Source: an uncultured Mycoplasma sp.
Lineage (GTDB): Bacteria > Bacillota_I > Bacilli_A > RF39 > UBA660
Direction: 5' to 3'
NCBI GenBank assembly: GCA_946500895.1
Contig: CAMMXG010000001.1
Location: 705 to 64,704, forward strand
DNA length: 64,000 bases
A program made the position numbers and the translations under genes. A model generated the notes under the pieces. It saw only the letters and a list, made by a program, of their open reading frames with translations, had not been told where the DNA came from and searched no databases. This document shows positions 15,240 to 43,212 of the stretch, piece by piece; position 1 is the stretch's first letter; each line of letters starts with the position of its first letter.

Positions 15240-15727
15240 TTTTTAATTTCTTCATCTGATTCATATACATCACTACCCCGAATTAATAAACCCTTTTTTA
15301 TAATCGCTTGGGGAAAATATTTTTTTAAATCTTCTTCACTGTGCCCCATACCACTACCCTCATGAGTACAAAAAGGTTTTATTACTATACCACTTAAATC
15401 AATACTTTCCAAGAAAGTAAAAACTGCCATCGGCATCGTACCCCACCAATTAGGATACCTTAAATAAATTGTATCATAATTACCACTATTTTCTAAATAT
15501 TTTTTTAAGATTGGGCGTAAATGATCTCTAAGCTCCTCCTGAGCGATTCTTGTTGTTTCATAATAATCCACTGGATACTCTTTAATCGTTTCTATTTTAA
15601 ATAAATCGGCACTGGTAAGCTCACTAATCTTTTTAGCAACTACCTCAGTATTTCCAACACTTAAATTTTCAATCCCATTTCTTGTATAGTTTTCTCCATT
15701 CCGTGAAAAATAAGCGACTAATTTCAT
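15218..15727 (-). CDS. flavodoxin-family protein
   Basis: 169 aa. 'LVAYFSRNGENYTRNG' is a flavodoxin-like FMN phosphate-binding loop. Confidence 0.55.
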   Translation of the reverse strand: MKLVAYFSRNGENYTRNGIENLSVGNTEVVAKKISELTSADLFKIETIKEYPVDYYETTRIAQEELRDHLRPILKKYLENSGNYDTIYLRYPNWWGTMPMAVFTFLESIDLSGIVIKPFCTHEGSGMGHSEEDLKKYFPQAIIKKGLLIRGSDVYESDEEIKNWIGEDL

Positions 15728-16086
15728 TTTTCTCCCCTCTTATAATAATCTATCTTATATTCCAATTTTTGATAAGCTTCTTTCATACAATCAATTTTTC
15801 CTTTTAAAGCAACTCTTTCTTTTTCTAAAAGCTTAATTCTTGCTTCTTTTGTATGTTCTCCTTCATCATATAACTGTATATATTTCTTTAAAACAGCAAT
15901 CGATAAACCTGCATTACGCATACACTTAACAAATCCTATTCGATCTAAATCTTCTTTAGAATATTCTCTCATACCACTTTCATTCTTCTTTATCGGACCA
16001 ATTAATCCTTCTTTTTCATAATACCTTAAGGTATCTTTACTCAAATCATAATTACTTGCCACTTCTTGTATAGTTATTTTTACCAC
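15724..16086 (-). CDS. MerR-family transcriptional regulator (NmlR/AdhR-like, single conserved Cys)
   Basis: 120 aa. N-terminal MerR HTH (YYEKEGLI), a coiled-coil dimerisation helix, and a Cys in 'FVKCMRNAGL' positioned like the redox-sensing Cys of AdhR/NmlR. Confidence 0.7.
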   Translation of the reverse strand: MVKITIQEVASNYDLSKDTLRYYEKEGLIGPIKKNESGMREYSKEDLDRIGFVKCMRNAGLSIAVLKKYIQLYDEGEHTKEARIKLLEKERVALKGKIDCMKEAYQKLEYKIDYYKRGEK

Positions 16087-16095
16087 CTCAAGTTA

Positions 16096-16126
16096 ATCAT
16101 ACTACTTAAAGTACACTCCAAGTCAA
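16096..16126 (-). promoter_or_regulatory. MerR-type promoter of the MerR-flavodoxin-DUF362 operon (TTGACT-19 bp-TATGAT)
   Basis: Minus strand TTGACT, spacer TGGAGTGTACTTTAAGTAG (19 bp, same dyad family as 9869 and 13259), then TATGAT. ATG of merR is ~10 nt downstream. Confidence 0.45.
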
Positions 16127-16157
16127 GTGTTTTTTTAAAAGAAAAAAGAGAAATTTA

Positions 16158-18122
16158 CTACAATTCTCCTTTATAAAAATAAATCTTCATAGCATCTTCA
16201 CCATATACAGGCTTAGAAATATCTATGTTCAAAAAATTCGCAATATAATATATTAAATATTGAGAAGCAATTAATAAATCATATTCACATAATATTCCAT
16301 CATATCTACTTTCAATAATGAAATTTTGACTATTTTCTAAATATTTTAATAATTGTTTTTCATATAAACTAGTAGTTTTTTGTTTAAAATAAAAGTTTTT
16401 TTTACTACTCAAGTGTTCATAATTAATAAATCGTCCATGTGAAAAATTTTTCTTTTCATGAATTAAAGAGTTGTATATACCAGATTCAATTATCTTACTT
16501 TCCAAATCAACACAAGCCGATTCTGTAAAATCTCCCATAAAAATATTAAAACTACTCCCAATAGCCAAAAATTCTTTTAACATTTTTCCATTTTCCTTAA
16601 AATAATTGGTAAAGTAATTTTTCCAATAATTTATACTATCTCTAATAAATTCAACAATATCACTATTTACTTTTTCATCAAAATATAATTTCAAAAACAA
16701 ACTTGCCGGAGCTAAAGCACCCTCAAATGATAAAAAGCCCCTTTCTTTTCCTTTATTTACTCCTGAGCGATAAGAAATAATATGTTCTTTAGATATTCCA
16801 GTTTTTGTCACAACTTTTTGTAATTCTCCTTTAGTTATAATATATTTCTTTCCTCCACTAATTAAACTTGTTGCAACACATAAATCGTCAGTCGTTCCAG
16901 AATAAGTAAATAAAAATACTGCCTCTAAACACTTATTATTTCTATAATATAAATCTCTAGGGTACAAAGAAATCGTATTTACCCCATATAATTGATTAAT
17001 AACTTTTGATGCGAATTTTGCCCCAGCAAAAGAACCACCTGTACCAACAAAAATAATATTATTTAAATTATCAAAATTAATTTTAACCAATTTATCATAA
17101 GCTCCACTATTAACAGCATTAATAACTCTTGTTTCTAGATTATTAATATTGATATTGCATCTTTTTATTTGCTTTCTAACCACTAAATCAAAATTATTAC
17201 AAGTACAATTATCCCCAGACTTTTTTATTTTATATAAATTTTGAATATGTCCCCTTGCTCCCATTTTTTTAACAACTTTTTTCGTAAGTTTAGTAGCCTT
17301 ATCAAAAGTAGAATCAATAAATTTATAATCAATAATATAATCATTTTTTATATATTCACTAATAAATACAGCAAAAAAAGCATCTCCTGCACCTGTTGGG
17401 TCAACTTCAACCTCTGGATTAACTAGCGCTTTACTAACTTTATGATGATTAAAAACAAAATCAGATCCTTTGCTTCCTCTCGTAACAATTATCATTTTAG
17501 GTTGTAATAAACCATATACATCTTCTAATAATTTCAAAGAAAATCTATTCTTTAAATATTTTTCTACACGTTCATTCAAGTTTATAATATCAAATTTACC
17601 TTTTATCTTGTTTAATATTTCTTGATTACTCAAACTCTCTAATTCAAAATATTGCCCTAAATCCAACATCTTTTTACTATTACAATTATCAATAATAATT
17701 TGATTTTTATCATTTAAATTATCAAAAACCAAAACATCATCCTCATTAATTTGCTTTAAAATATTATTTACTTCGATTTCACTTTCTAAATACCATCTTT
17801 TTGTATTACAAAAAGGGCATCTTTTCTTAGAAATAAACTCAAGTTTACCATTTGCTTCTTGATAAAGAACGTGAAAAGAGCGAGTATGTATATCTTTCTT
17901 AATTTTGACTCCATCAATATTTACCCCAACATCTTTTAAACTATCAATAGCTACTTTACCTAAAGTATCATCACCACAAACTCCATAAACAGCTGTATTC
18001 AAACCTAACTTAGCAATATTAAAAATGATATTATGTGAGCTCATTCCTCCACTTACTCCTATAAGTTTACCGTTTTTATAATAAAAATCAGTAACCAAAT
18101 CGCCTATACTAATTACCTTCAT
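16158..18122 (-). CDS. PfkB-family carbohydrate/nucleoside kinase fused to SIS (phosphosugar-binding/isomerase) domain
   Basis: 654 aa. N-terminal ribokinase-like region with 'DPTGAGDAF' anion-hole motif. Central SIS-like 'IIFVGTGGSFAGAKFAS'. C-terminal ~130 aa unassigned. Confidence 0.55.
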   Translation of the reverse strand: MKVISIGDLVTDFYYKNGKLIGVSGGMSSHNIIFNIAKLGLNTAVYGVCGDDTLGKVAIDSLKDVGVNIDGVKIKKDIHTRSFHVLYQEANGKLEFISKKRCPFCNTKRWYLESEIEVNNILKQINEDDVLVFDNLNDKNQIIIDNCNSKKMLDLGQYFELESLSNQEILNKIKGKFDIINLNERVEKYLKNRFSLKLLEDVYGLLQPKMIIVTRGSKGSDFVFNHHKVSKALVNPEVEVDPTGAGDAFFAVFISEYIKNDYIIDYKFIDSTFDKATKLTKKVVKKMGARGHIQNLYKIKKSGDNCTCNNFDLVVRKQIKRCNININNLETRVINAVNSGAYDKLVKINFDNLNNIIFVGTGGSFAGAKFASKVINQLYGVNTISLYPRDLYYRNNKCLEAVFLFTYSGTTDDLCVATSLISGGKKYIITKGELQKVVTKTGISKEHIISYRSGVNKGKERGFLSFEGALAPASLFLKLYFDEKVNSDIVEFIRDSINYWKNYFTNYFKENGKMLKEFLAIGSSFNIFMGDFTESACVDLESKIIESGIYNSLIHEKKNFSHGRFINYEHLSSKKNFYFKQKTTSLYEKQLLKYLENSQNFIIESRYDGILCEYDLLIASQYLIYYIANFLNIDISKPVYGEDAMKIYFYKGEL

Positions 18123-19429
18123 TTTTTTATCACCCTTTTTACTAATAGTACTTCACTTTTTGGAGAATAATCTCCATTTTTTATTAAACATTCTAAGATT
18201 TTTCTTCTGTTTAAATCAAAGATTCCTAAAGAATCCTCATATAGATTTTCACTATATCTATCTCTCCAACTATATGGACTAGGAAAATATAAACCCTCTA
18301 TAAAATTAAAGAAATGTCTATAATCAACTGCCCCATGGTTTGGTAAAAACATTTGACTAATTCTATTCACTCCTGGATATCTTACAGCAACTATTTTGTC
18401 AACATCTATGCCTATATCAAAAAAAGTAGTTAAAACTAATTGCATTGTTTTCCCTGTCAATAAATTATCATCTAAAATAATATATTTCTTTTGTTTATCT
18501 ATTCCCAAAAGTTCAATCCCACCAGCCTCAGAAATATCAAAAAATCTTAATTCTAATGACTGTTTTTTAGCATACCCTGTTACATTTCTATTAAATTTCA
18601 ATACAGAAACATCATTCAATCTATTATCAATCGCTTTCATTATAATTGGTAATTCTAAGCCCCCATAGCACACTCCACAAATACCTTTATCAAAAATATT
18701 AGAATCTTTTTGCATAGTCAAATAACAAGTAATAAAATTTTCAGCAAAATTATCTATCTCTCTATACGCTCTAAAATCTTTAGAATAATTGCCTTTATCT
18801 TTGTACTTTGTAAATTCTGCGATAAACTCATTAGTAATTAAAATAACACTTTTAATTAAATTTGTAATATCAACACAATTAATTTTATAACTTTCATTAA
18901 ATGAAATATTTTTCATCAAATCTTCTGTAATTACTAAAGCATGATAAAGTTTATTCAATAACGATTCTTGAATGGATGCCTCTAAATTAACTATTACACT
19001 TTTTAAAATATCATTACTAATAATTTGTTGATTCAACAAAACTAACAAATAATTTCTGATATTATCAATTAAACCTAATATCATTTTAGTATTATTTAAA
19101 TCATTTACATCAAAAAGTTGATTAATTGCTATGAAAGCTTTTGAAAAGAAATCTACATTATTATTTAACCATTCATACACCATTTCCCTAGTAGTTAAAT
19201 CTTCTTGCGTATTTTCGTCATGAAGTCTTTGTGATAAAAAATAGTAATAAGTTTTTGAACCTCTTAATAAAATATTTTCATTATCATACATTGAATAACA
19301 CAGACTAAAATCATTACATATAAGCCATAACTGCTTTAATGGATTATCATCTGGTATTGTAATCCAATCATACATAGGAATTTTAACACTTCCACTCGAA
19401 GAATCAAATACAACTAGAAATTCCATCAA
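18119..19429 (-). CDS. two-domain protein: unassigned N-terminal domain (~250 aa) + type-I phosphoribosyltransferase domain
   Basis: 436 aa. PRPP-binding motif 'KYIILDDNLLTGKTM' near residue 320. 4-nt overlap (ATGA) with the downstream PfkB-SIS gene. Confidence 0.55.
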   Translation of the reverse strand: MMEFLVVFDSSSGSVKIPMYDWITIPDDNPLKQLWLICNDFSLCYSMYDNENILLRGSKTYYYFLSQRLHDENTQEDLTTREMVYEWLNNNVDFFSKAFIAINQLFDVNDLNNTKMILGLIDNIRNYLLVLLNQQIISNDILKSVIVNLEASIQESLLNKLYHALVITEDLMKNISFNESYKINCVDITNLIKSVILITNEFIAEFTKYKDKGNYSKDFRAYREIDNFAENFITCYLTMQKDSNIFDKGICGVCYGGLELPIIMKAIDNRLNDVSVLKFNRNVTGYAKKQSLELRFFDISEAGGIELLGIDKQKKYIILDDNLLTGKTMQLVLTTFFDIGIDVDKIVAVRYPGVNRISQMFLPNHGAVDYRHFFNFIEGLYFPSPYSWRDRYSENLYEDSLGIFDLNRRKILECLIKNGDYSPKSEVLLVKRVIKK

Positions 19430-20444
19430 TAGTTTGAAACTTATTATTAATCAAATTATTAAAATAGATAATTTTATTATTTTTACCTTGATTCATTTTC
19501 TTTTCAATTATAGCATATGCTCTTGCATATTCACTTTGAATAGCATGCTCTAAACAGATTGTTGGCAATAATTTTGCTTTTTTTAGTAAACTTAAAGTTC
19601 CATTAACACCCGTTATTATTTTGCCATTTTCAATAATTGGAAAACACTTATCAACATCTCCACTAGTTTTCCCAACACTAAACCCCTGAGAACATTGTAA
19701 CATAGAATAATCATTTCCGAATTTATCTCCGCAATCTCCAATTCGAAGCATTGAATTCTGAGGAATTCCTATTATTTTTTCGGCAATTTTTATAGCTTTA
19801 TCTTTAGTTGCAGTACCTATTTGTAAAACTTGTTTACCATTATGCATTCCTATTGTCAAATTTAAATTAGAATTTTTATAACTTCCTATTAATAAATTAA
19901 TGAAATCAAATACTTTATTATTATATTCTATATCATCACTTAAAACCATTATTCTTATATTTATTATAGTATTTGTTTTAGAATCGGTTGAGTAAGTAAG
20001 CTTACAATTTTTATCAAAGTTAAGAGCTTTAAATAAAGTAACAATTTTTTTGTTTAATTCTTCCAATTGAATAAGGTCTTCTTTAGAGGATATATATTCA
20101 CTAACATTAAACAATTGTTTACTTTCATTACCAGTCATGAATAACCTTGCACCATCATTTGTAAGAGCATACATTCTTAACAATTGTTTATCAGTAACGT
20201 CATATTTATTCTTTAAATCATTAACAATATCGCTTAATAAATCACTTAAACCGGTTTCTCCTCTACCAGTAATAAAAAGAATTGGAATATGTTTCTTTAA
20301 TAGATTAGCTAATATTGGCAAAATACGAGAATCTATTTTTGTAGAATGTTCTATAGTTAAAGTACCATCAATATCAAAACATACAGCATTATATTTTTGT
20401 TGCAATGCTCTCTTATAATTATTTAACAATTCTTGACTTACCAT
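19404..20444 (-). CDS. HAD-superfamily (IIB/Cof-like) phosphatase
   Basis: 346 aa. Motif I 'CFDIDGTLT'. Later 'GDCGDKFGNDYSMLQ' resembles HAD motif IV. Confidence 0.55.
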   Translation of the reverse strand: MVSQELLNNYKRALQQKYNAVCFDIDGTLTIEHSTKIDSRILPILANLLKKHIPILFITGRGETGLSDLLSDIVNDLKNKYDVTDKQLLRMYALTNDGARLFMTGNESKQLFNVSEYISSKEDLIQLEELNKKIVTLFKALNFDKNCKLTYSTDSKTNTIINIRIMVLSDDIEYNNKVFDFINLLIGSYKNSNLNLTIGMHNGKQVLQIGTATKDKAIKIAEKIIGIPQNSMLRIGDCGDKFGNDYSMLQCSQGFSVGKTSGDVDKCFPIIENGKIITGVNGTLSLLKKAKLLPTICLEHAIQSEYARAYAIIEKKMNQGKNNKIIYFNNLINNKFQTIDGISSCI

Positions 20445-20453
20445 ACTATTCTC

Positions 20454-20942
20454 CTATAAAATTCTACGCAAACTTTTCACGACTTCAAATTGATTGGAAA
20501 AATCTAAATTTTCACTAAAATAAAGACCTCTTCCTCCCTTTTGTTCCCAATCAATTAAATTTTTAATACTATCATCAATTAAAATTTCGCCATTATTCGG
20601 CAAATATATTTGGCTTTTTTTAATATGTGGTGGAACAAATAAAATTGGTATCTCAATATTTCTACTTCTTAAGGCTCTCACCTTTGCTTCCATTTCAAGC
20701 AAAGTATGAATTTTAGTTAAAATAGCGATTTGCTTAGATTTGCTTTGTGCTTCTAATATATAATCAATAGCATTATTTATTACTTTGGCTTCTTCTAATA
20801 ATTCAAACCAGTCTAACTCTTCAAAAAAAGCATTCCAACTTATATCAGGTCTTAACTTTTTTCTGTCAACAACTCTTTTCTCTGTATCAAATATTACTCC
20901 ATCAAAATCAATAAAAATATTCTCTTTGGACATAGCTAACAC
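20454..20942 (-). CDS. small HAD-like hydrolase (5'-nucleotidase-like)
   Basis: 162 aa. Motif I 'FIDFDGVIFDT', C-terminal 'ILIDDS'. Size and motifs recall NT5C-type 5'(3')-deoxyribonucleotidases. Confidence 0.45.
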   Translation of the reverse strand: MLAMSKENIFIDFDGVIFDTEKRVVDRKKLRPDISWNAFFEELDWFELLEEAKVINNAIDYILEAQSKSKQIAILTKIHTLLEMEAKVRALRSRNIEIPILFVPPHIKKSQIYLPNNGEILIDDSIKNLIDWEQKGGRGLYFSENLDFSNQFEVVKSLRRIL

Positions 20943-20989
20943 CTCAATAAACTTATTATATCACACTAATAGGAAATATTTTGTCTAAA

Positions 20990-21583
20990 TTATTTACTAT
21001 TTAATTTTATTCTATCTATCTCAAAATGTCTAATATCATTTCTTAATTCACAATAAGAAGTTACATAGAATGTGCTATCATAATTAAATATTTGTAAAGG
21101 ATGAATTATTCTTTCTTGCCATTCCTGATTTAAATTTCTATATAATATTTTTAATGGTGTTTTATTAGAAATTGCATCATTTAAAGCAAAGTACAATTCA
21201 GATTTATCAATAATACCATTATCTAAAAAAAATTTACTTTTTTCTTCCTCTACATCACTTGCAAATTGAATTCTATTAATTAATTTTCTATATTTTATAA
21301 TATCTTTATATCCTATTTTTTCTAATATCACATTAATATTTTCTAACAATTGAATATCATATTTATTAAAATGATTATACTGGTTTTTAACATTTATAAT
21401 ATAATATCCTCCATTAGGTCCCATAAAAGTTTCAATTGGAATTCCTGCTTGTTCTAATTCACATTTGTAATACCTTATCATTCGCTCAGTAATGCCTATT
21501 TTTTCTGATAATTCCTTTACACTATATTTATTTCCTGTATTTAAATAGTTTAACATTTGAATAGCATTTGATATTTTACCCAT
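20990..21583 (-). CDS. HTH + WYL-domain transcriptional regulator (BrxR/CapW-like architecture, short form)
   Basis: 197 aa. N-terminal HTH_11-like 'SVKELSEKIGITERMIRYYK'. C-terminal WYL-like block 'LKILYRNLNQEWQERIIHPLQIFNYDSTFYVTSYC'. First gene of the minus-strand operon. Confidence 0.55.
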   Translation of the reverse strand: MGKISNAIQMLNYLNTGNKYSVKELSEKIGITERMIRYYKCELEQAGIPIETFMGPNGGYYIINVKNQYNHFNKYDIQLLENINVILEKIGYKDIIKYRKLINRIQFASDVEEEKSKFFLDNGIIDKSELYFALNDAISNKTPLKILYRNLNQEWQERIIHPLQIFNYDSTFYVTSYCELRNDIRHFEIDRIKLNSK

Positions 21584-21644
21584 TTCTTCACTTCCTCATC
21601 TTATTTTATCATATTAATATACTTTTTTCATTTCTAATAAATAT

Positions 21645-21680
21645 TTATTTTAAAGAAAAAAAGAGAAATAACTTCTCTTA
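21645..21680 (-). terminator. rho-independent terminator after the arylsulfotransferase gene
   Basis: AAGAGAA-ATAAC-TTCTCTT hairpin overlapping the stop, followed on the minus strand by TTTTTTTCTTTAAAA. Confidence 0.45.
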
Positions 21681-23645
21681 AAATTCTACATACTCTCCTG
21701 TATCATAAATAACACCATCAATTTCTAAATAAATAGAATATTTACCAGTTAGTCCTTCAGCATTAATATATTTATTAACGACAATTCCATTTTCTGTTTC
21801 ATCTTCTGTAAATATATCTAAGCACATTGCCGTATAAGGTCTTCTACTAACAGATACATGATATTCTTTGATATTCATATTTTGATATAAAAGAATATTA
21901 ACATCTTCTCCTTGTTTGTATCTTCCACTAACCACAATTCGGTCAACCTCTTGTGTAACTGAAAATTCTCTATCAAATTCACTGATATCAGTTGTGCCAA
22001 GAACAAAGCCAAATCTTTCTTCCGTTACATCAGAACCACCAAGAGAACCAATTCTTTTTGCTGCGCCCATTTCATAATTTTCATTATCTGTATACAAACT
22101 CATTTTCTCAACTCGGTAATTATTAGTTGGTAAAATGATTTCAAAAACGACTTCATCATCGATTAATTCAACAGTATCACTAACTAATCTATCGGCTCCA
22201 CCTATTCCGGCTGGTTGATTGGAATTAACACCATCAACATAAACAATTCCTCCAGAGTGAACAATATAATGTTCTGCATCTATATAATCTACATCAGAAA
22301 TATATGGAGAATAAAATTCACTACCACGTTCTTTTCCATATTCCCAAATTTGTTCAATGGTCATATTATCGGTATCAATTTTATACATAACACCTCTAGT
22401 ATAACTATCTTCTGCCGGTACATATTCGGATTCTATTTTTGACTTATTATTACCATTATCTAAAATAAATACATAACCTTCCGGTGTAATCATCGCTGCA
22501 TGTTGACTCCATTGCCATTCAAAGTCATCTCCAACTGGTGTAAAGAAATACTTTTGATACTCCTCACTCCAGTTTGTAGGATCGCCAATAATCCAATTAA
22601 GTTCACCTGTATCATAATCTATATTAATAACAGCATCTTGATGTCTTCCTGATAAAGTTATGGAATCAGTCGCTTCATCATACCAAACCGAATTATTATG
22701 GAACCAATCATACTCTACCCAGTTTTCACTTTTACCATCTTCCATATTTAAGATGTCCTTTAAATCCCAAGTCTTAACAATCTCACCGGTATTCATATCC
22801 ACTTCCACAATGTAATCTTCAACTGTTCCATAATCATTATAAAAATCATCACTAGCTACTAACAAATTACCATTAGGCATTTCAAAATAATCATGGTGAT
22901 ATCCACCCTCTAGACTAATCTCTTTATAAATCTTGCCTAATAAATCCATTTCATACAAACCAGTCATATAATATGGCGAATTAATCAGTCTTTCAGTTGA
23001 AACGAGTAAATGACCATTATCTAAACGATTAATTTCCCATAAAGCATTAATCGTTAAATACCATCTTACATCTCCATTTACATCATAAGCACTAGTATAC
23101 CCGCTACTAGATGGTGTAAAAAAGTATAATTCATTTCCAAGTTCACTTTTATCTGCCTCTACACTAGTAGATAAGACAAAATCATCTGGTAATGCTTCTG
23201 TTTCAATAGTGATGGTTTTCTCTGTATCTCCAAATTCAATAATAACTTCATTGGCCTCACCAGCATATAAACCATAAATAGGTAAATAATGAACTGTATT
23301 ACGATCAAATTCATGAGTAAAAGTAGTATTGTCATCTTTACCAACAATTGTAATAGTCGGTGCTACTTCCTCCTTTGTTTCAAATATTACCAAAGCAGTT
23401 AAAGGTGATATTTCATAAGGATTAACAATGATATTAGGATTATCAATAGTATAGCCTTCACTAACAAACTCTTTTTCAAGCTCTACTTGCGTATCTACTA
23501 AACTAATTGTTTGTTCTACTTCTTCATTATTTGTTGACAAACTGTTTAAAACAAATAATGAAACGACAACTAAAACTATAACAATTAATAAAGTAATTAA
23601 AATTATTTTCTTTTTGTTTTTCATTTTTCTTCCCTCCAAAAACAA
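21678..23645 (-). CDS. arylsulfate sulfotransferase (ASST) family beta-propeller protein
   Basis: 655 aa with N-terminal signal-anchor. 'WFHNNSVWYDEATDSITLSGRHQDAVINIDYDTGELNWIIG' matches ASST-family blocks. Confidence 0.55.
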   Translation of the reverse strand: MFLEGRKMKNKKKIILITLLIVIVLVVVSLFVLNSLSTNNEEVEQTISLVDTQVELEKEFVSEGYTIDNPNIIVNPYEISPLTALVIFETKEEVAPTITIVGKDDNTTFTHEFDRNTVHYLPIYGLYAGEANEVIIEFGDTEKTITIETEALPDDFVLSTSVEADKSELGNELYFFTPSSSGYTSAYDVNGDVRWYLTINALWEINRLDNGHLLVSTERLINSPYYMTGLYEMDLLGKIYKEISLEGGYHHDYFEMPNGNLLVASDDFYNDYGTVEDYIVEVDMNTGEIVKTWDLKDILNMEDGKSENWVEYDWFHNNSVWYDEATDSITLSGRHQDAVINIDYDTGELNWIIGDPTNWSEEYQKYFFTPVGDDFEWQWSQHAAMITPEGYVFILDNGNNKSKIESEYVPAEDSYTRGVMYKIDTDNMTIEQIWEYGKERGSEFYSPYISDVDYIDAEHYIVHSGGIVYVDGVNSNQPAGIGGADRLVSDTVELIDDEVVFEIILPTNNYRVEKMSLYTDNENYEMGAAKRIGSLGGSDVTEERFGFVLGTTDISEFDREFSVTQEVDRIVVSGRYKQGEDVNILLYQNMNIKEYHVSVSRRPYTAMCLDIFTEDETENGIVVNKYINAEGLTGKYSIYLEIDGVIYDTGEYVEF

Positions 23646-24440: not shown

Positions 24441-25712
24441 TTAAGAAATTGTGTAGGGATTACTACTTGTTCCGCTTCCAGTAATTGTAACATCAGCACG
24501 TAAATTGATAGCTGGGCGCACACCCCACGCGTTATCCACGCTGTTGTAGTTGAGGTTGCCAGGCGAATTCACAATGAACACCCAAGCCCAACCGTAGTCA
24601 AAGTAATACGGAGACATGGTCCAGTATCCGCTATTTGTATATAGGTAATAACTACTATTACTTGTTGCGTATACTCCTCCGGCATAGGATACTTCATCGG
24701 CTGTGATTAATCCTATTGGATATTGTAATGCTTTATTTCCTTTACTTGCTCCGCTTACTGTGAACAAGTCACTACTATTACTACATTTGAAACTTGGTGT
24801 TTTGTTTGTTACCAATCTATTATATACTGCATAAATGGTCGCTGTTTTTCCTGTTCCACTTCCACTATATGGTGTCCTATCATTACAGAATCCTGCATTC
24901 ATATCTATATCATCGGCATAACTTGCTAAATTGTTTTGGTACCATGTATTCAGTACTCCTAGTATTGTACTATTTGTTCCTGTTCCATGCACATTATTGG
25001 TCGTGTATTTAAATCCTACGTATGCATTATTATTATATGAACTATTGAATGTACTGGTTTGAATCTGTGTTCCGGTTCCGGTTGTTGTATTATTTGTTCC
25101 ATTATAGATTAATCTTATCGTTCCATCTCCATTAATCCTTATGATGCGCCAATAATATCCTGCCCAACGCACCCAGTTATCACTTGGGTTTCCTGCAAAG
25201 TAGTATGTTGTTCCATCATCATCTTCTGCTTGGTAGATTGTTCCTGTAGTGTTGGTTGTTAATGTTGATGAAAAGTTTGGTCTTGTTGTTATGTTTTTTC
25301 CTGCTAAGATTGTATCTCTTGCAAATACCTTCTCATTAAAATACAATGTACATTTTGTTCCTTTCATTGTAAAAGGTGTAATTGTCAAATTTCCTGTTTC
25401 ACTATCATAGCTGATACTTAAATTCTCTATTTCACTACCATCTTTATAAGTACAAGTACTTTGGGTTGTATCTAGTGTATATGTTTTACTACTATCAAGT
25501 TTATCTGCTTCTACTCCATCAATATATAATCCTATGATATTTAAGTCTGGTAGTGTATAGTTTATTGTTCCATTAACGAGTGGTATACTTTCTGTTACTC
25601 TGTATTTTGCTCTGGTAAAATTTAGTATTACTGCACTTATTATTAGTACTGCTATTACTCCTATAATGATATTTCTTTTTAAATGGCTTCTTTTTAATAC
25701 CTCAAATTTCAT
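24441..25712 (-). CDS. exported Thr/Gly-rich protein with N-terminal signal-anchor; C-terminal domain of foreign codon usage
   Basis: 423 aa. TM near the N-terminus. TGT-rich low-complexity stretch. Last ~50 codons (24441-24600) use GC-rich codons (CGC, GCG, GTG, CTC) unlike the rest of the window. Confidence 0.4.
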   Translation of the reverse strand: MKFEVLKRSHLKRNIIIGVIAVLIISAVILNFTRAKYRVTESIPLVNGTINYTLPDLNIIGLYIDGVEADKLDSSKTYTLDTTQSTCTYKDGSEIENLSISYDSETGNLTITPFTMKGTKCTLYFNEKVFARDTILAGKNITTRPNFSSTLTTNTTGTIYQAEDDDGTTYYFAGNPSDNWVRWAGYYWRIIRINGDGTIRLIYNGTNNTTTGTGTQIQTSTFNSSYNNNAYVGFKYTTNNVHGTGTNSTILGVLNTWYQNNLASYADDIDMNAGFCNDRTPYSGSGTGKTATIYAVYNRLVTNKTPSFKCSNSSDLFTVSGASKGNKALQYPIGLITADEVSYAGGVYATSNSSYYLYTNSGYWTMSPYYFDYGWAWVFIVNSPGNLNYNSVDNAWGVRPAINLRADVTITGSGTSSNPYTIS

Positions 25713-41247: not shown

Positions 41248-43212
41248 TCATTCCATAATATTTTTCTTAAATCCAAAGTAAGTTGCCATAAAATAAATCG
41301 CATAAATCATTAAAAATAAAATTAAATTACTAAAGAAATAAACTAAATAAACTGTATCATTTGCTAAAATTAATTTAAATAAATCATTGAGTGATGTAAT
41401 GGTACAAATACTTACAACGATTGGATAAACTAAAGGAAATAAGAAAAATAATAATAATTGTTTACGAACAGTTTTAAATAACTCTTTATCTCTAACTCCG
41501 AGCTTTCGGAGAACTGTATAACGATATTTATATTTAGTAGAATCACTTAAAGATTGTATAGCTAAAATTGTACCTACTACTGCTGTAAAAATAAATGCTA
41601 CATAATAAAATACAAAACTAGTAATTGTCATAAATCCATTATTATTCGCTTCTTCTTGTCCTCTTACCACAATATTAGATAAAGAATAACACACTTGATA
41701 ACCATATTCATTCTCTTCGCAAAAATCAGGTGATGCAAAAGCAATTAATTCATTTGCTAACTCTTCGGTTGTATCTTCTTCAGTATCAATAATTAAATGA
41801 GATTCACTAACAAGTAACCCTTCTGTTGCTCTATCAGGAACCACAATAATATAACCATATCCATAAGCCCACGAAGAAGTATACCCTTCGGTTCGAAATT
41901 CTTTTAAATGAAGATTTACCCCATTTGATAAAGTAATATTTTCTATCTCTTCAACATCTAAAGTATCCTTATATTCTCTTGTCGCATGTAAAAGATATTC
42001 CCCTTCATCTAAAGAAACAGGATCCATTCCCCTCATTTCTAATAATTTATTATAAGAACTAAGAGAAATGACTAAATCAGACGTTCTCCAAGTATCACCA
42101 ATTAAATTTAAAATATTATTCGCTGAATCTACGTAAGCATCATATTCGAATGTTTCAAGTATGGTATAATCTTCATCTACTAAATTGACATATTCTGAAA
42201 ATTTTGCTTTATCATCATTGATATTAATATCATAAGGTGCAGCAAGTTCTATTTGATAATCAAACATTCCTTTAAATAAACTAGACATATTAAGTGATAC
42301 AAGTGTTAATGTAATAAGAAGTGTAAGTGTACCCAAAGTAAAACTCATTGTTTTCACTTTCGAACGAAATGTTCTTGCTACAAACAAATTATCAGAAGTA
42401 TATTTTAATCTTTTATTTTTCAATACAAAATTTAAAATAAAATCAGCAAGCGTAAAAGTAATACCATAAATACTAACAGCAAGCATACCTATACATAAAA
42501 AGATTGTACCCATATTAGGTTCCGTTCCTATATGAAATTCTCCATCAAACAAACAAATGGCATAAATTCCTAAAGCTAAAGAAATAATAAATCCAATATT
42601 TCTAATATTTTTATGCTTTATCATATTCTTTTCATTTTGACGTTCAAAATATAATAAATCATACACTTTCATCTTCTTTATTCTTCTATTCGATAAAAAT
42701 AATACAATTAAATAAATAATACCAAAATAGAGCATGGATAAAAACAAAGCATTACTATTGAAATCCATTAAAACTTGATAAGGAAGATCAAAAATGTTCA
42801 TAATAATCGCTGAAAACAAAATACTAAAAAGATATCCAATAGGAATAGAAACTAAAAAAGCAAAAACACCTAAAAACAAATTTTCTAAAGTAAACATTCT
42901 AGATATTTGCCTCTTCTTAATTCCTAAAACCATATAAGTGCCAAATTCATGACTTCTTTTACTAAACATAAACTTTGTCGTATAATTTATTAGGAAACAA
43001 ACAACTAAAATAATAAAAGCATTAACAAAATACATCACATACTTAAAATTATCCATCACACTACTTAAATTAAGTACATCTTCACTATTTGAAATTAAAT
43101 TAAAAGCAAAGATAAAAGAAAAAGCAAGAGTTACTGTAATTAAATAGATAATGTAATCTTTAATACTTCTTTTAGCATTACGAACCCCCAACTTACTTAG
43201 CAAGAGAATCAT
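41248..43212 (-). CDS. BceB-like ABC permease (second copy)
   Basis: 654 aa, same FtsX 4TM-loop-4TM architecture as 32693-34756. Confidence 0.6.
   Translation of the reverse strand: MILLLSKLGVRNAKRSIKDYIIYLITVTLAFSFIFAFNLISNSEDVLNLSSVMDNFKYVMYFVNAFIILVVCFLINYTTKFMFSKRSHEFGTYMVLGIKKRQISRMFTLENLFLGVFAFLVSIPIGYLFSILFSAIIMNIFDLPYQVLMDFNSNALFLSMLYFGIIYLIVLFLSNRRIKKMKVYDLLYFERQNEKNMIKHKNIRNIGFIISLALGIYAICLFDGEFHIGTEPNMGTIFLCIGMLAVSIYGITFTLADFILNFVLKNKRLKYTSDNLFVARTFRSKVKTMSFTLGTLTLLITLTLVSLNMSSLFKGMFDYQIELAAPYDININDDKAKFSEYVNLVDEDYTILETFEYDAYVDSANNILNLIGDTWRTSDLVISLSSYNKLLEMRGMDPVSLDEGEYLLHATREYKDTLDVEEIENITLSNGVNLHLKEFRTEGYTSSWAYGYGYIIVVPDRATEGLLVSESHLIIDTEEDTTEELANELIAFASPDFCEENEYGYQVCYSLSNIVVRGQEEANNNGFMTITSFVFYYVAFIFTAVVGTILAIQSLSDSTKYKYRYTVLRKLGVRDKELFKTVRKQLLLFFLFPLVYPIVVSICTITSLNDLFKLILANDTVYLVYFFSNLILFLMIYAIYFMATYFGFKKNIME

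What the first reader, a model, noticed from the sequence alone, without database searches (positions are those of the whole stretch)
16158..21583. WYL-regulator-headed operon of two HAD hydrolases, a novel-N-domain PRTase and a PfkB-kinase/SIS fusion
Five minus-strand genes are translationally coupled. Overlaps are ATGA at 18119-18122 and 26 nt at 19404-19429, with a 9-nt gap at 20445-20453. The first gene is an HTH+WYL ligand-sensing regulator, the class that includes BrxR and CapW, which switch defense islands.

The enzyme set is kinase, phosphosugar-binding/isomerase domain, phosphoribosyltransferase and two phosphatases. This is formally analogous to the nucleotide-heptose pathway (GmhA SIS isomerase, HldE PfkB kinase, GmhB HAD phosphatase). 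Here, however, a PRPP-dependent transferase replaces the nucleotidyltransferase, and the kinase and SIS domains are fused in one 654-aa protein. I do not recognise this combination as any described pathway or defense system.

It could make a phosphoribosylated sugar or nucleotide-like small molecule, either signal, toxin or surface-glycan precursor. The WYL domain would be a plausible sensor for it.
Basis: partly seen in the sequence, partly recalled or inferred. Interest (0 to 1): 0.75.

Follow-up and report, generated by a model that had tools for sequence, protein, structure and literature searches.

The report
WYL-controlled phosphoribosyltransferase–isomerase cassette, function unknown
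A regulator plus three enzyme genes form a tightly conserved, uncharacterised cassette in many uncultured gut bacteria; it most likely builds a ribose-derived small molecule from PRPP, and distant relatives sit among anti-phage genes.

Summary
The ORFs and domain calls are real, but there are four genes, not five. The "26-nt overlap" is a one-base insertion at about 19412/19413. It splits a single HAD-IIB::N-domain::PRTase gene that is one ORF of about 774 aa in 69 of 80 related loci.

The cassette order is HTH-WYL regulator, conserved promoter/operator box, NT5C-like HAD, HAD-IIB::PRTase, then PfkB kinase fused to a GlmS/FrlB-type double-SIS isomerase. This order is kept in at least 80 loci, and 117 species carry a relative of the PRTase. 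All are uncultured gut Bacilli. Flanking genes differ between species. Cassette DNA is far more conserved than its flanks.

PADLOC finds nothing but the WYL domain, no Pfam family covers the N-domain, and I found no paper on it.

Distant relatives keep the PRTase with the same special SIS protein and PfkB. Others replace SIS with PRAI (TrpF), sometimes fused to it, or with NADAR. One clade adds TIR, Metallophos or kinase-like domains and lies next to R-M, Abi, dGTPase-like and RT genes.

Best reading: a WYL-controlled pathway N-phosphoribosylates an amine with PRPP, isomerises the adduct Amadori-style, and resets its phosphates. The product would be a nucleoside-like metabolite used in biological conflict. 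The acceptor and the biological role are unproven.

The parts
20990..21583 (-). HTH-WYL transcription regulator, 197 aa. It is a short form that ends with the WYL domain.
   Evidence: Pfam WYL 4.5e-15 and HTH_11 1.9e-5. PADLOC WYL model 7.4e-27. Present next to the enzyme genes in 70 of 80 related loci.
20955..20986 (-). Promoter/operator of the enzyme genes. Conserved box AGACAAAATATTTCCTAT at 20969-20986, followed by an extended -10 element TGATATAAT at 20955-20963.
   Evidence: Sequence read. A GAC-N2-3-AWAYWKCM box lies in 65 of 71 WYL-to-next-gene intergenic regions. Per-column conservation is 80-99% in species whose proteins are only about 45% identical. Binding by the WYL protein is inferred.
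20454..20933 (-). Small HAD phosphatase, NT5C-like 5'-nucleotidase type, 159 aa from the ATG at 20933. The ORF lister starts it at the GTG at 20942.
   Evidence: Motifs DxDGV, TK, K and DD are invariant. Pfam NT5C matches 10 of 24 family members, best 3.1e-6. Most relatives start at the position of this ATG. RBS GAGGTG at 20940-20945.
19404..20444 (-). HAD-IIB phosphatase domain. It is the N-terminal third of the HAD-IIB::N-domain::PRTase gene, cut off here by a frameshift.
   Evidence: TIGR01484 1.1e-8. Motif I 'CFDIDGTLT'. Fused to the PRTase in 69 of 80 relatives.
19412..19413 (-). One-base insertion (extra T, AGTTGTA against AGTGTA) that splits the fusion gene.
   Evidence: blastn alignment to L006 at 98.6% identity shows a single gap inside the gene. 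Sequence read.
18695..19429 (-). Family-specific N-domain: a small beta unit plus a helical bundle. Conserved motifs are LRGSxTYYYF, LGxLDNxRN and FRxYREIDNFxEN. No known homologue.
18119..18694 (-). Type I phosphoribosyltransferase core with an intact PRPP-binding loop (D320 D321 N322 .. T325 G326 K327 T328).
17223..18122 (-). PfkB (ribokinase-family) kinase domain of the 654-aa fusion. The motifs GG, NxxE and DPTGAGDAF are present.
16158..17165 (-). Double-SIS module of the GlmS-isomerase / NagB-II / FrlB type. Invariant E546, H562 and K646 are candidate catalytic residues.

Best explanation
This is a four-gene cassette. An HTH-WYL regulator controls, through a conserved box at the promoter of the downstream genes, a three-gene operon that makes a ribose-derived, nucleoside-like small molecule from PRPP.

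**Proposed steps**
1. The PRTase core, helped by its family-specific N-domain, transfers 5-phosphoribose from PRPP to a primary or exocyclic amine of an unknown acceptor. The product is an N-(5-phosphoribosyl)amine.
2. The GlmS/FrlB-type double-SIS domain opens the ring and isomerises this adduct to the ketosamine, a 1-amino-1-deoxyribulose-5-phosphate derivative. This is an Amadori rearrangement, the step that PRAI performs in sister cassettes.
3. The fused HAD-IIB domain and the NT5C-like HAD remove phosphate groups. The PfkB kinase, fused to SIS, supplies or restores the phosphate that SIS needs, acting either on the acceptor precursor or on the intermediate.

**Proposed role.** The product is most likely used in biological conflict, as a phage-defence signal or toxin or for chemical warfare, rather than in core metabolism.

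**Shown:** gene content, domain identities, intact catalytic motifs, conservation of the cassette, alternative partners in relatives, and the contexts of those relatives.

**Inferred:** PRPP as the donor, an amine as the acceptor, the direction of the SIS step, the order of steps, binding of the WYL protein to the box, and the biological role.
For: - **Intact enzymes.** Every enzyme domain keeps its catalytic motifs across proteins that are 40-99% identical.
- **Conserved unit.** The cassette order is fixed in 80 loci, and relatives of the PRTase occur in 117 species.
- **Fusions join steps.** HAD-IIB::PRTase and PfkB::SIS fusions suggest consecutive reactions.
- **Core pair across clades.** The PRTase family keeps the same special SIS protein, and usually PfkB, across clades that are only 30-45% identical. 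This includes clades where they are separate genes: hhalign E 1e-43 for the L124 partner, and HMM hits in L122, L124 and L126.
- **Replacements for SIS point to a C1-N ribosyl bond.** SIS is replaced by PRAI/TrpF in L086, L089, L090 and L093, and PRAI is fused to the PRTase in the 1417-aa P0324. It is replaced by NADAR in L087, L088, L091, L102, L103 and L105. By established enzymology, PRAI, GlmS/FrlB-type SIS enzymes and NADAR all act on the C1-N bond of ribosyl or ketosyl amines. NADAR as a ribosyl N-glycosidase is summarised in PMC9503650.
- **SIS looks catalytic.** It keeps the GlmS-like Glu and His.
- **Accessory genes vary.** Species-specific genes are inserted in the operon or follow it: CAT plus esterase, DHH plus APH kinase, B12-radical SAM plus Cof HAD, Ham1, NUDIX, and a class-I aaRS-like fusion. 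This is typical of small-molecule clusters.
- **No transporter.** None is seen in any variant, which argues against catabolism.
- **Conflict flavour.** A WYL regulator heads the cassette in two clades. One clade has TIR, Metallophos or TCAD9-like N-terminal fusions and neighbours such as R-M systems, AbiTii, an HD dGTPase-like protein, an RT and PRTase-CE/ORC-CDC6-like genes.
- **Unusual conservation.** Cassette DNA is 93-100% identical between species whose flanks are 73-89% identical, with sharp edges at the cassette ends.
- **Recurrent breakage.** The PRTase gene is repeatedly disrupted in relatives.
Against: - No acceptor can be named and no product is known.
- SIS could run in the deglycase direction, as FrlB does. 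With the PRTase that would be a futile cycle, or a toxin-antidote pair.
- The role of the kinase is not placed with any confidence.
- In the window's own clade the neighbours are ordinary genes (arylsulfotransferase, MerR, flavodoxin, ligA, SMC, ileS), not defence genes.
- The cassette proteins evolve more slowly than their neighbours, which is unlike typical defence genes.
- The alignment to GlmS catalytic residues has a weak statistic (E 0.03).
- In this window the PRTase gene is frameshifted, so the cassette may be inactive here.
Confidence: 0.4

Rival explanations
1. Catabolic or repair (deglycation) pathway. PfkB phosphorylates a ketosamine or N-glycosyl compound taken from the gut. The FrlB-like SIS domain then splits it into a sugar phosphate and a free amine or base. 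The PRTase with the HAD phosphatases salvages or detoxifies the released base as a riboside.
For: - Kinase plus double-SIS is exactly the FrlD/FrlB arrangement, as in the E. coli frl operon.
- NCBIfam lists fructoselysine 6-kinase among the weak kinase hits.
- The host bacteria are gut organisms with small genomes.
Against: - No transporter or permease is linked in any clade.
- The PRTase consumes PRPP, which is anabolic.
- PRAI and aaRS-like fusions to the PRTase do not fit catabolism.
- WYL control, the TIR fusion and defence-island contexts in relatives do not fit.
- hhalign to FrlB itself is not significant (E 0.34).
Confidence: 0.2
2. Toxin/antidote-type abortive-infection module. The PRTase is a toxic effector. 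It either phosphoribosylates an essential amine-bearing target (a nucleotide, or guanine N2 in nucleic acid, in analogy to DarT) or drains PRPP. SIS, PRAI or NADAR and the phosphatases reverse or process the adduct. The WYL regulator releases expression on infection.
For: - PRTase-NADAR two-gene pairs mirror DarT-NADAR operons, in which NADAR is the antitoxin (abstract of PMC11125620).
- PRTase domains are toxins in Shosta and PsyrTA and are retron effectors (bioRxiv 10.1101/2022.05.11.491447).
- The PRTase gene is disrupted in 8 of 77 complete relatives and has decayed in clade E, while PfkB::SIS stays intact. That fits a costly gene.
- The TIR fusion and defence-island contexts in relatives.
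Against: - A phosphatase is fused to the PRTase in nearly all clades, and isomerases of small-molecule type accompany it.
- Cassette proteins are highly conserved.
- No nucleic-acid-binding domain was detected in the enzymes.
- PADLOC models for known PRTase systems do not hit.
Confidence: 0.15
3. Heptose/Kdo-like sugar-nucleotide or surface-glycan precursor pathway.
For: The domain classes are formally the same: SIS, PfkB kinase and HAD phosphatase. There is a weak rfaE_dom_I hit of 3e-8.
Against: - SIS is the GlmS-type double module, not GmhA.
- The kinase scores 33 bits against a 345-bit cut-off.
- No nucleotidyltransferase, glycosyltransferase or envelope gene is linked in any locus examined.
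- The alternative partners PRAI and NADAR do not fit a glycan pathway.
Confidence: 0.04
4. Ordinary purine/pyrimidine or NAD salvage operon of a reduced genome.
For: The PRTase fold is closest to OPRT, HGPRT and APRT. An NT5C-like nucleotidase and a ribokinase-family kinase are present.
Against: - NCBIfam equivalog scores are about 19 bits against cut-offs of 146-200.
- There is a 245-aa novel N-domain.
- Salvage does not need a GlmS-type isomerase.
- Flanks are variable and the cassette shows transfer-like conservation.
- Accessory genes differ by species.
Confidence: 0.05

Closest known systems
FrlD/FrlB (E. coli) and FraD/FraB (Salmonella) ketosamine kinase-deglycase pairs
   Different: Here the two are fused. 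There is no transporter and no GntR regulator. Sequence similarity to FrlB is not significant. They are obligatorily linked to a PRTase::phosphatase.
Tryptophan/histidine logic: PRPP-dependent N-ribosylation followed by Amadori rearrangement (TrpD then TrpF/PRAI)
   Same: Sister cassettes pair or fuse this PRTase family with PRAI. That implies the same two-step chemistry.
   Different: The PRTase has the type I fold rather than the TrpD fold. A phosphatase is fused to it. The window uses SIS instead of PRAI. No later tryptophan or histidine enzymes are present.
PRTase + HAD phosphatase steps of nucleoside natural-product pathways, such as the angustmycin adenine phosphopsicosyltransferase (PDB 7f06)
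   Different: There is no pyrophosphokinase for an unusual sugar. The hosts are small-genome gut Bacilli. The regulator is a WYL protein. The N-domain is unique.
Ter-system-associated PRTase/HAD module, predicted to make a nucleoside-like signal in stress or phage response (summarised in PMC7824862)
   Same: It is a predicted PRTase plus HAD phosphoesterase synthesis of a nucleoside derivative in a conflict or stress context.
   Different: No TerB, TerD or TerC and no ATP-grasp genes are present. This is a different PRTase family, and here SIS and PfkB are the core partners.
WYL regulators of defence islands (BrxR, CapW)
   Same: An HTH+WYL one-component regulator is encoded at the head of the cassette it presumably controls.
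   Different: The protein is only 197 aa and ends right after the WYL domain, so there is no room for a further C-terminal domain of the kind BrxR and CapW carry (that they carry one is from memory). The controlled genes are metabolic-type enzymes, not BREX or CBASS.
DarT-NADAR and PRTase toxins (Shosta, PsyrTA, retron effectors)
   Same: A ribosyl-transferring enzyme is paired with a NADAR hydrolase in one sister clade. PRTase domains are used as defence effectors.
   Different: The donor would be PRPP, not NAD+. There is no DprA-like or RT partner. PADLOC models do not match.

Membership tests
Nucleotide-heptose pathway (GmhA/HldE/GmhB) | GmhA-type single SIS sedoheptulose-7-P isomerase | tested here: not met
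Nucleotide-heptose pathway (GmhA/HldE/GmhB) | HldE/HldA heptose-7-P kinase and a nucleotidyltransferase | tested here: not met
   rfaE_dom_I scores 33 bits against a 345-bit cut-off. No nucleotidyltransferase lies in the cassette in any of 80 loci.
FrlD/FrlB-type ketosamine kinase + deglycase | PfkB kinase functionally joined to a double-SIS enzyme | tested here: met
   Both are in one 654-aa polypeptide. They are separate adjacent genes in L126.
FrlD/FrlB-type ketosamine kinase + deglycase | Sequence-level membership in FrlB or FrlD, with the operon's transporter | tested here: not met
   hhalign to E. coli FrlB gives E 0.34 over 67 columns. The fructoselysine 6-kinase model scores 42 bits against a 247-bit cut-off. 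No transporter is linked.
GlmS isomerase-domain superfamily (double SIS) | Two SIS subdomains with a catalytic Glu and a ring-opening His (E. coli GlmS E488 and H504; numbering from memory) | tested here: inconclusive
   The fold is met. hhalign over 261 columns puts invariant E546 on the Glu of GlmS 'KLKE' and H562 on the His of 'ELKHGP', but E is only 0.03. These residues are invariant in clades A, B and E. Activity was not tested.
Type I phosphoribosyltransferases | PRT fold with a PRPP-binding loop (acidic pair followed by T/S-G-x-T) | tested here: met
HAD superfamily, NT5C 5'(3')-deoxyribonucleotidase family (small HAD) | HAD motifs I-IV and a match to the NT5C model | tested here: inconclusive
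   The motifs are invariant. NT5C matches 10 of 24 family members, best 3.1e-6, but not the window protein itself.
BrxR/CapW-type WYL regulators | wHTH + WYL + C-terminal extension domain, next to a known defence system | tested here: not met
   HTH and WYL are present. The protein is 197 aa and ends at the WYL domain. No BREX or CBASS genes are nearby.
Known anti-phage systems (PADLOC-DB v2) | A match of any enzyme to a defence-system model | tested here: not met
   The four enzyme ORFs give 0 hits. Only the regulator hits WYL models.
Shosta / PsyrTA / retron PRTase effectors | PRTase toxin with a DprA-like antitoxin or an RT/msDNA partner | tested here: not met
   There is no PADLOC hit and no such partner in the window or in 80 loci.
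Defence-island residents (guilt by association) | Enrichment next to known defence genes | tested here: inconclusive
   In the window's clade the flanks are housekeeping or ordinary genes. In clade F, four of the five contigs examined carry R-M, Abi, HD dGTPase-like, RT or ORC-CDC6-like neighbours; the fifth (L122, 5.9 kb) is too short to tell. No statistical test was possible.

The most novel reading that the evidence does not exclude
The PRTase family, with its dedicated SIS, PRAI or NADAR partners, is the core of a new class of WYL-controlled conflict systems. These would use PRPP instead of NAD+ to ribosylate an exocyclic amine, possibly on a nucleotide or on nucleic acid. That would be a PRPP-dependent counterpart of DarT-NADAR. 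The adduct would then be locked by an enzymatic Amadori rearrangement, either creating a non-canonical nucleoside-like toxin or signal, or irreversibly 'glycating' the target.
Probability: 0.15. Interest if true: 0.9.

Novelty: categorically new. Interest (0 to 1): 0.75.

Why it matters
The cassette is a strongly conserved, apparently exchangeable gene set in at least 117 species of uncultured gut Bacilli. It belongs to a wider family of 362 cluster representatives that nobody seems to have described.

Its enzyme logic has no characterised precedent: PRPP transferase, Amadori-type isomerase, kinase and phosphatases under a ligand-sensing WYL regulator.

If the product is a new nucleoside-like metabolite, there are three possibilities:
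- It could be a signal or toxin in phage defence, as the TIR-fused, defence-island relatives suggest.
- It could be a gut-microbiome small molecule with effects on neighbouring microbes or the host.
- It could be a new route of ribosylamine/ketosamine chemistry.

The comparative data make this testable. There are defined intact alleles, predicted catalytic residues and a candidate operator.

Tried and rejected
**Searches that found nothing**
- PADLOC on all five ORFs: only WYL hits.
- Sequence search of the PRTase ORF against PDB: noise only.
- Profile of the second SIS subdomain against PDB: no hits.
- Profile of the small HAD against PDB: nothing significant.
- Viral contig scan for the PRTase family: none.
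- BFVD fold search: no hit with E at or below 0.001.
- The AFDB50 fold library was unavailable.
- Four literature searches for combinations of WYL, PRTase, PfkB, SIS, NADAR and PRAI: no description of the cassette.

**Uninformative or negative checks**
- Promoter/terminator consensus scan: uninformative in this AT-rich DNA, 46 sites found against 46.9 expected.
- A paralogue of PfkB::SIS in the window (the 654-aa ORF at 41248-43212): unrelated.
- An alternative genetic code as the explanation for the fragmented clade-E PRTase: rejected, because the pieces lie in different reading frames. It is a multiply frameshifted pseudogene.

**Ideas considered and rejected**
- Programmed frameshifting at 19412/19413: rejected, because 69 of 80 relatives encode the protein in one frame.
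- The heptose-pathway reading: rejected (see the membership test).

Full report
**1. Observation**

- 16158-18122, 654 aa
- 18119-19429, 436 aa
- 19404-20444, 346 aa
- 20454-20942, 162 aa
- 20990-21583, 197 aa

The ATGA overlap at 18119-18122 and the 9-nt gap at 20445-20453 follow from these coordinates.

Domain searches give two strong matches. PfkB scores 6e-20 over residues 31-260, and HTH+WYL scores 4.5e-15 for the WYL domain. The other matches are weak. Pribosyltran scores 0.007. HAD-IIB scores 1e-8, below its cut-off. An archaeal PGI/PMI SIS model scores 2.7e-4 over residues 347-442. PADLOC hits only the regulator.

**2. The "26-nt overlap" is a frameshift**

Homologues of the 436-aa ORF are mostly 600-780 aa long and start with the HAD-IIB domain. 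In 80 loci from a scan of one genome per species, 69 carry HAD-IIB and PRTase as one ORF of at least 760 aa. Three more are cut by contig ends, and eight are split at various positions.

Against L006, which is 98.6% identical over 5.7 kb, the window has one extra T at 19412/19413: AGTTGTA in place of AGTGTA.

The cassette therefore has four genes:
- the regulator;
- a small HAD;
- HAD-IIB::N-domain::PRTase (about 774 aa when intact);
- PfkB::SIS.

Whether the insertion is a sequencing error or a real inactivation cannot be decided here.

**3. Identities of the parts**

An hhalign alignment to the E. coli GlmS isomerase domain covers 261 columns with E 0.03. It places invariant E546 on the Glu of 'KLKE' and invariant H562 on the His of 'ELKHGP'. 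From memory, these are GlmS E488 and H504. A C-terminal invariant Lys, K646, may correspond to GlmS K603; this is my reading and is not in the alignment. The motif DLESKxxE.G...HEKKNFSHGRF is invariant in three clades.

*Other motifs.* The kinase motifs GG, NxxE and DPTGAGDAF are invariant.

*Small HAD.* It keeps all HAD motifs. Family members match Pfam NT5C, the 5'-nucleotidase family, in 10 of 24 cases, best 3e-6.

**4. Distribution and behaviour of the cassette**

The genome scan found relatives in 117 species. All are uncultured gut Bacilli, labelled Tenericutes, Mollicutes, CAG:302, CAG:451, Candidatus Onthousia, Caccenecus, Faecisoma or Scybalousia.

The order WYL - small HAD - HAD-IIB::PRTase - PfkB::SIS is constant. 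Some species have accessory genes inserted between the last two genes:
- CAT-type acetyltransferase plus an alpha/beta-hydrolase esterase (about 1.3 kb, at least 14 loci);
- the esterase alone;
- a DHH/DHHA1 phosphoesterase plus an APH-family kinase (2 kb, about 7 loci).

Flanking genes differ between species, and no integrase lies next to the cassette. The window's neighbours are ordinary genes: arylsulfotransferase, XRE, MerR, flavodoxin, DUF362, PAP2 and DAGK.

Cassette DNA is 93-100% identical to L006 and L007, while both flanks are only 73-89% identical. The change is sharp at about 16.1 and 21.6 kb. Flanking proteins are 64-85% identical, against 94-99% for cassette proteins. Either the cassette has recently been exchanged between species, or it is under exceptional constraint.

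The 47-nt spacer between the regulator and the first enzyme gene carries the box AGACAAAATATTTCCTAT directly upstream of an extended -10 element. A version of this box occurs in 65 of 71 loci, with 80-99% column conservation. It is a likely operator. Binding is inferred.

**5. What relatives elsewhere say**

An exhaustive profile search finds 362 representatives at 50% clustering, 288 of them at E of 1e-10 or better. Their contexts and fusions fall into clades.

- *Clade B.* WYL - HAD-IIB::PRTase - PfkB::SIS, in some cases followed by a B12-radical-SAM enzyme and a Cof-type HAD.
- *Clade C.* HAD-IIB::PRTase - PRAI (TrpF family) - HAD_2 - Ham1. One 1417-aa protein fuses HAD-IIB, PRTase, PRAI and a ribulose-phosphate-epimerase-like barrel.
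- *Clade D.* PRTase - NADAR pairs, or a NADAR fusion.
- *Clade E.* A multiply frameshifted PRTase pseudogene lies beside an intact 690-aa PfkB::SIS.
- *aaRS fusions.* Two representatives fuse the PRTase to a class-I (Trp/Tyr-type) aminoacyl-tRNA-synthetase domain.
- *Clade F.* Proteins of 1000-1270 aa add TIR, Metallophos or a TCAD9/APH-like kinase domain in front of HAD-IIB::PRTase. Family-specific PfkB and SIS proteins are encoded next to them. The L124 partner gives hhalign probability 100 and E 1e-43. L126 has PfkB upstream and NUDIX plus a SIS-containing protein downstream. Their neighbours include an HD/HD_assoc dGTPase-like gene, a 1044-aa reverse transcriptase, type I R-M, AbiTii, LlaJI R-M and a PRTase-CE/ORC-CDC6-like system.

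No phage contig carries the family.

**6. Mechanism**

The constant core is this PRTase together with a phosphatase and one of three partners: a special double-SIS protein, PRAI or NADAR.

By established enzymology:
- PRAI catalyses the Amadori rearrangement of an N-(5-phosphoribosyl)arylamine.
- GlmS/FrlB-type SIS enzymes interconvert aldosyl and ketosyl amines.
- NADAR hydrolyses ribose-to-exocyclic-amine N-glycosidic bonds (summarised in PMC9503650).

The simplest common denominator is that the PRTase makes an N-phosphoribosylamine on a primary or exocyclic amine. SIS in this window, or PRAI elsewhere, would convert it to the stable ketosamine. The fused HAD-IIB domain and the NT5C-like HAD would remove phosphates. 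PfkB would provide the phosphate that SIS needs.

Three observations favour synthesis of a small molecule over catabolism: the variable tailoring genes, the lack of any transporter, and the dedicated ligand-sensing regulator. Four observations favour a role in biological conflict: the TIR, NUDIX, NADAR and Ham1 associations; the defence-island contexts of clade F; the transfer-like conservation; and the recurrent loss of the PRTase gene.

I put 0.4 on this combined reading. The chemistry of steps 1-2 is the better-supported half. The biological role and the place of the kinase are the weaker half.

**7. Rivals**

- *Ketosamine/N-riboside catabolism, FrlD/FrlB-like (0.2).* It fits the kinase-SIS fusion but not the absence of a transporter or the PRPP use.
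- *Toxin/antidote or PRPP-draining abortive infection (0.15).* It fits the PRTase-NADAR pairs and the recurrent PRTase loss. It fits the fused phosphatase and the strong conservation less well.

**8. Comparison with what is known, and novelty**

The closest characterised analogues are FrlD/FrlB, the TrpD-to-TrpF logic, and the PRTase plus HAD steps of nucleoside antibiotics. The closest predicted analogue is the Ter-associated PRTase/HAD "nucleoside-like metabolite" module (PMC7824862). The cassette is a member of none of them (see the membership table).

I found no description of it in the searchable literature. No Pfam, NCBIfam or PADLOC model covers the N-domain or the system. I therefore rate it as a new kind of system built from known enzyme superfamilies. 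The function is not demonstrated, and the copy in this window carries a frameshift.

Noticed in passing
window 16100-21600 against flanks; L006, L007, L008: Nucleotide identity to three other species' genomes is 91-100% inside the cassette. For L006 and L007 it falls to 73-89% immediately outside, with sharp boundaries. This suggests recent cassette-level exchange between species.
   Followed up: partly
L010, L011, L018, L036, L038, L049, L069, L077; L107, L109-L116: The HAD-IIB::PRTase gene is split at different positions in 8 of 77 complete relatives. It is a multiply frameshifted pseudogene in a 25%-GC clade. PfkB::SIS is almost always intact (1 split in 78). The PRTase gene seems to be lost preferentially.
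   Followed up: partly
window 16158-18122 (protein residues C102, C105, C306, C308): Two invariant Cys pairs, CPxC in an insertion of the kinase domain and CxC in the linker before SIS, could form a zinc site tying the two halves together.
   Followed up: no
window 16099-16126 and 15724-16086: The downstream MerR-family gene has its own MerR-style promoter (TTGACT, long spacer, TAGTAT). MerR plus flavodoxin genes recur near the cassette in several other species, on either side of it.
   Followed up: no
L126:757-11611: One contig carries PfkB, Metallophos::HAD-IIB::PRTase, NUDIX and a SIS-containing 546-aa protein. These are followed directly by a PRTase-CE / ORC-CDC6-like gene pair (Pfam PF24390 and PF24389).
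   Followed up: partly
P0271, P0276 (representative proteins, no context available): The same N-domain+PRTase is fused at its C-terminus to a class-I Trp/Tyr-type aminoacyl-tRNA-synthetase domain. This hints at an aromatic amino-acid or aminoacylation step in some versions.
   Followed up: no
window 24441-25712: A 423-aa ORF with an N-terminal hydrophobic segment and Thr/Asn/Gly-rich repeats has no Pfam match. It lies between two XRE-type regulators and is only 55% identical in the closest relative that covers this region (L007).
   Followed up: no
window 21678-23645: A 655-aa arylsulfotransferase (ASST, Pfam 7e-101) with a signal-anchor-like N-terminus lies directly upstream of the cassette. 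It shares that position only in the nearest relatives.
   Followed up: no
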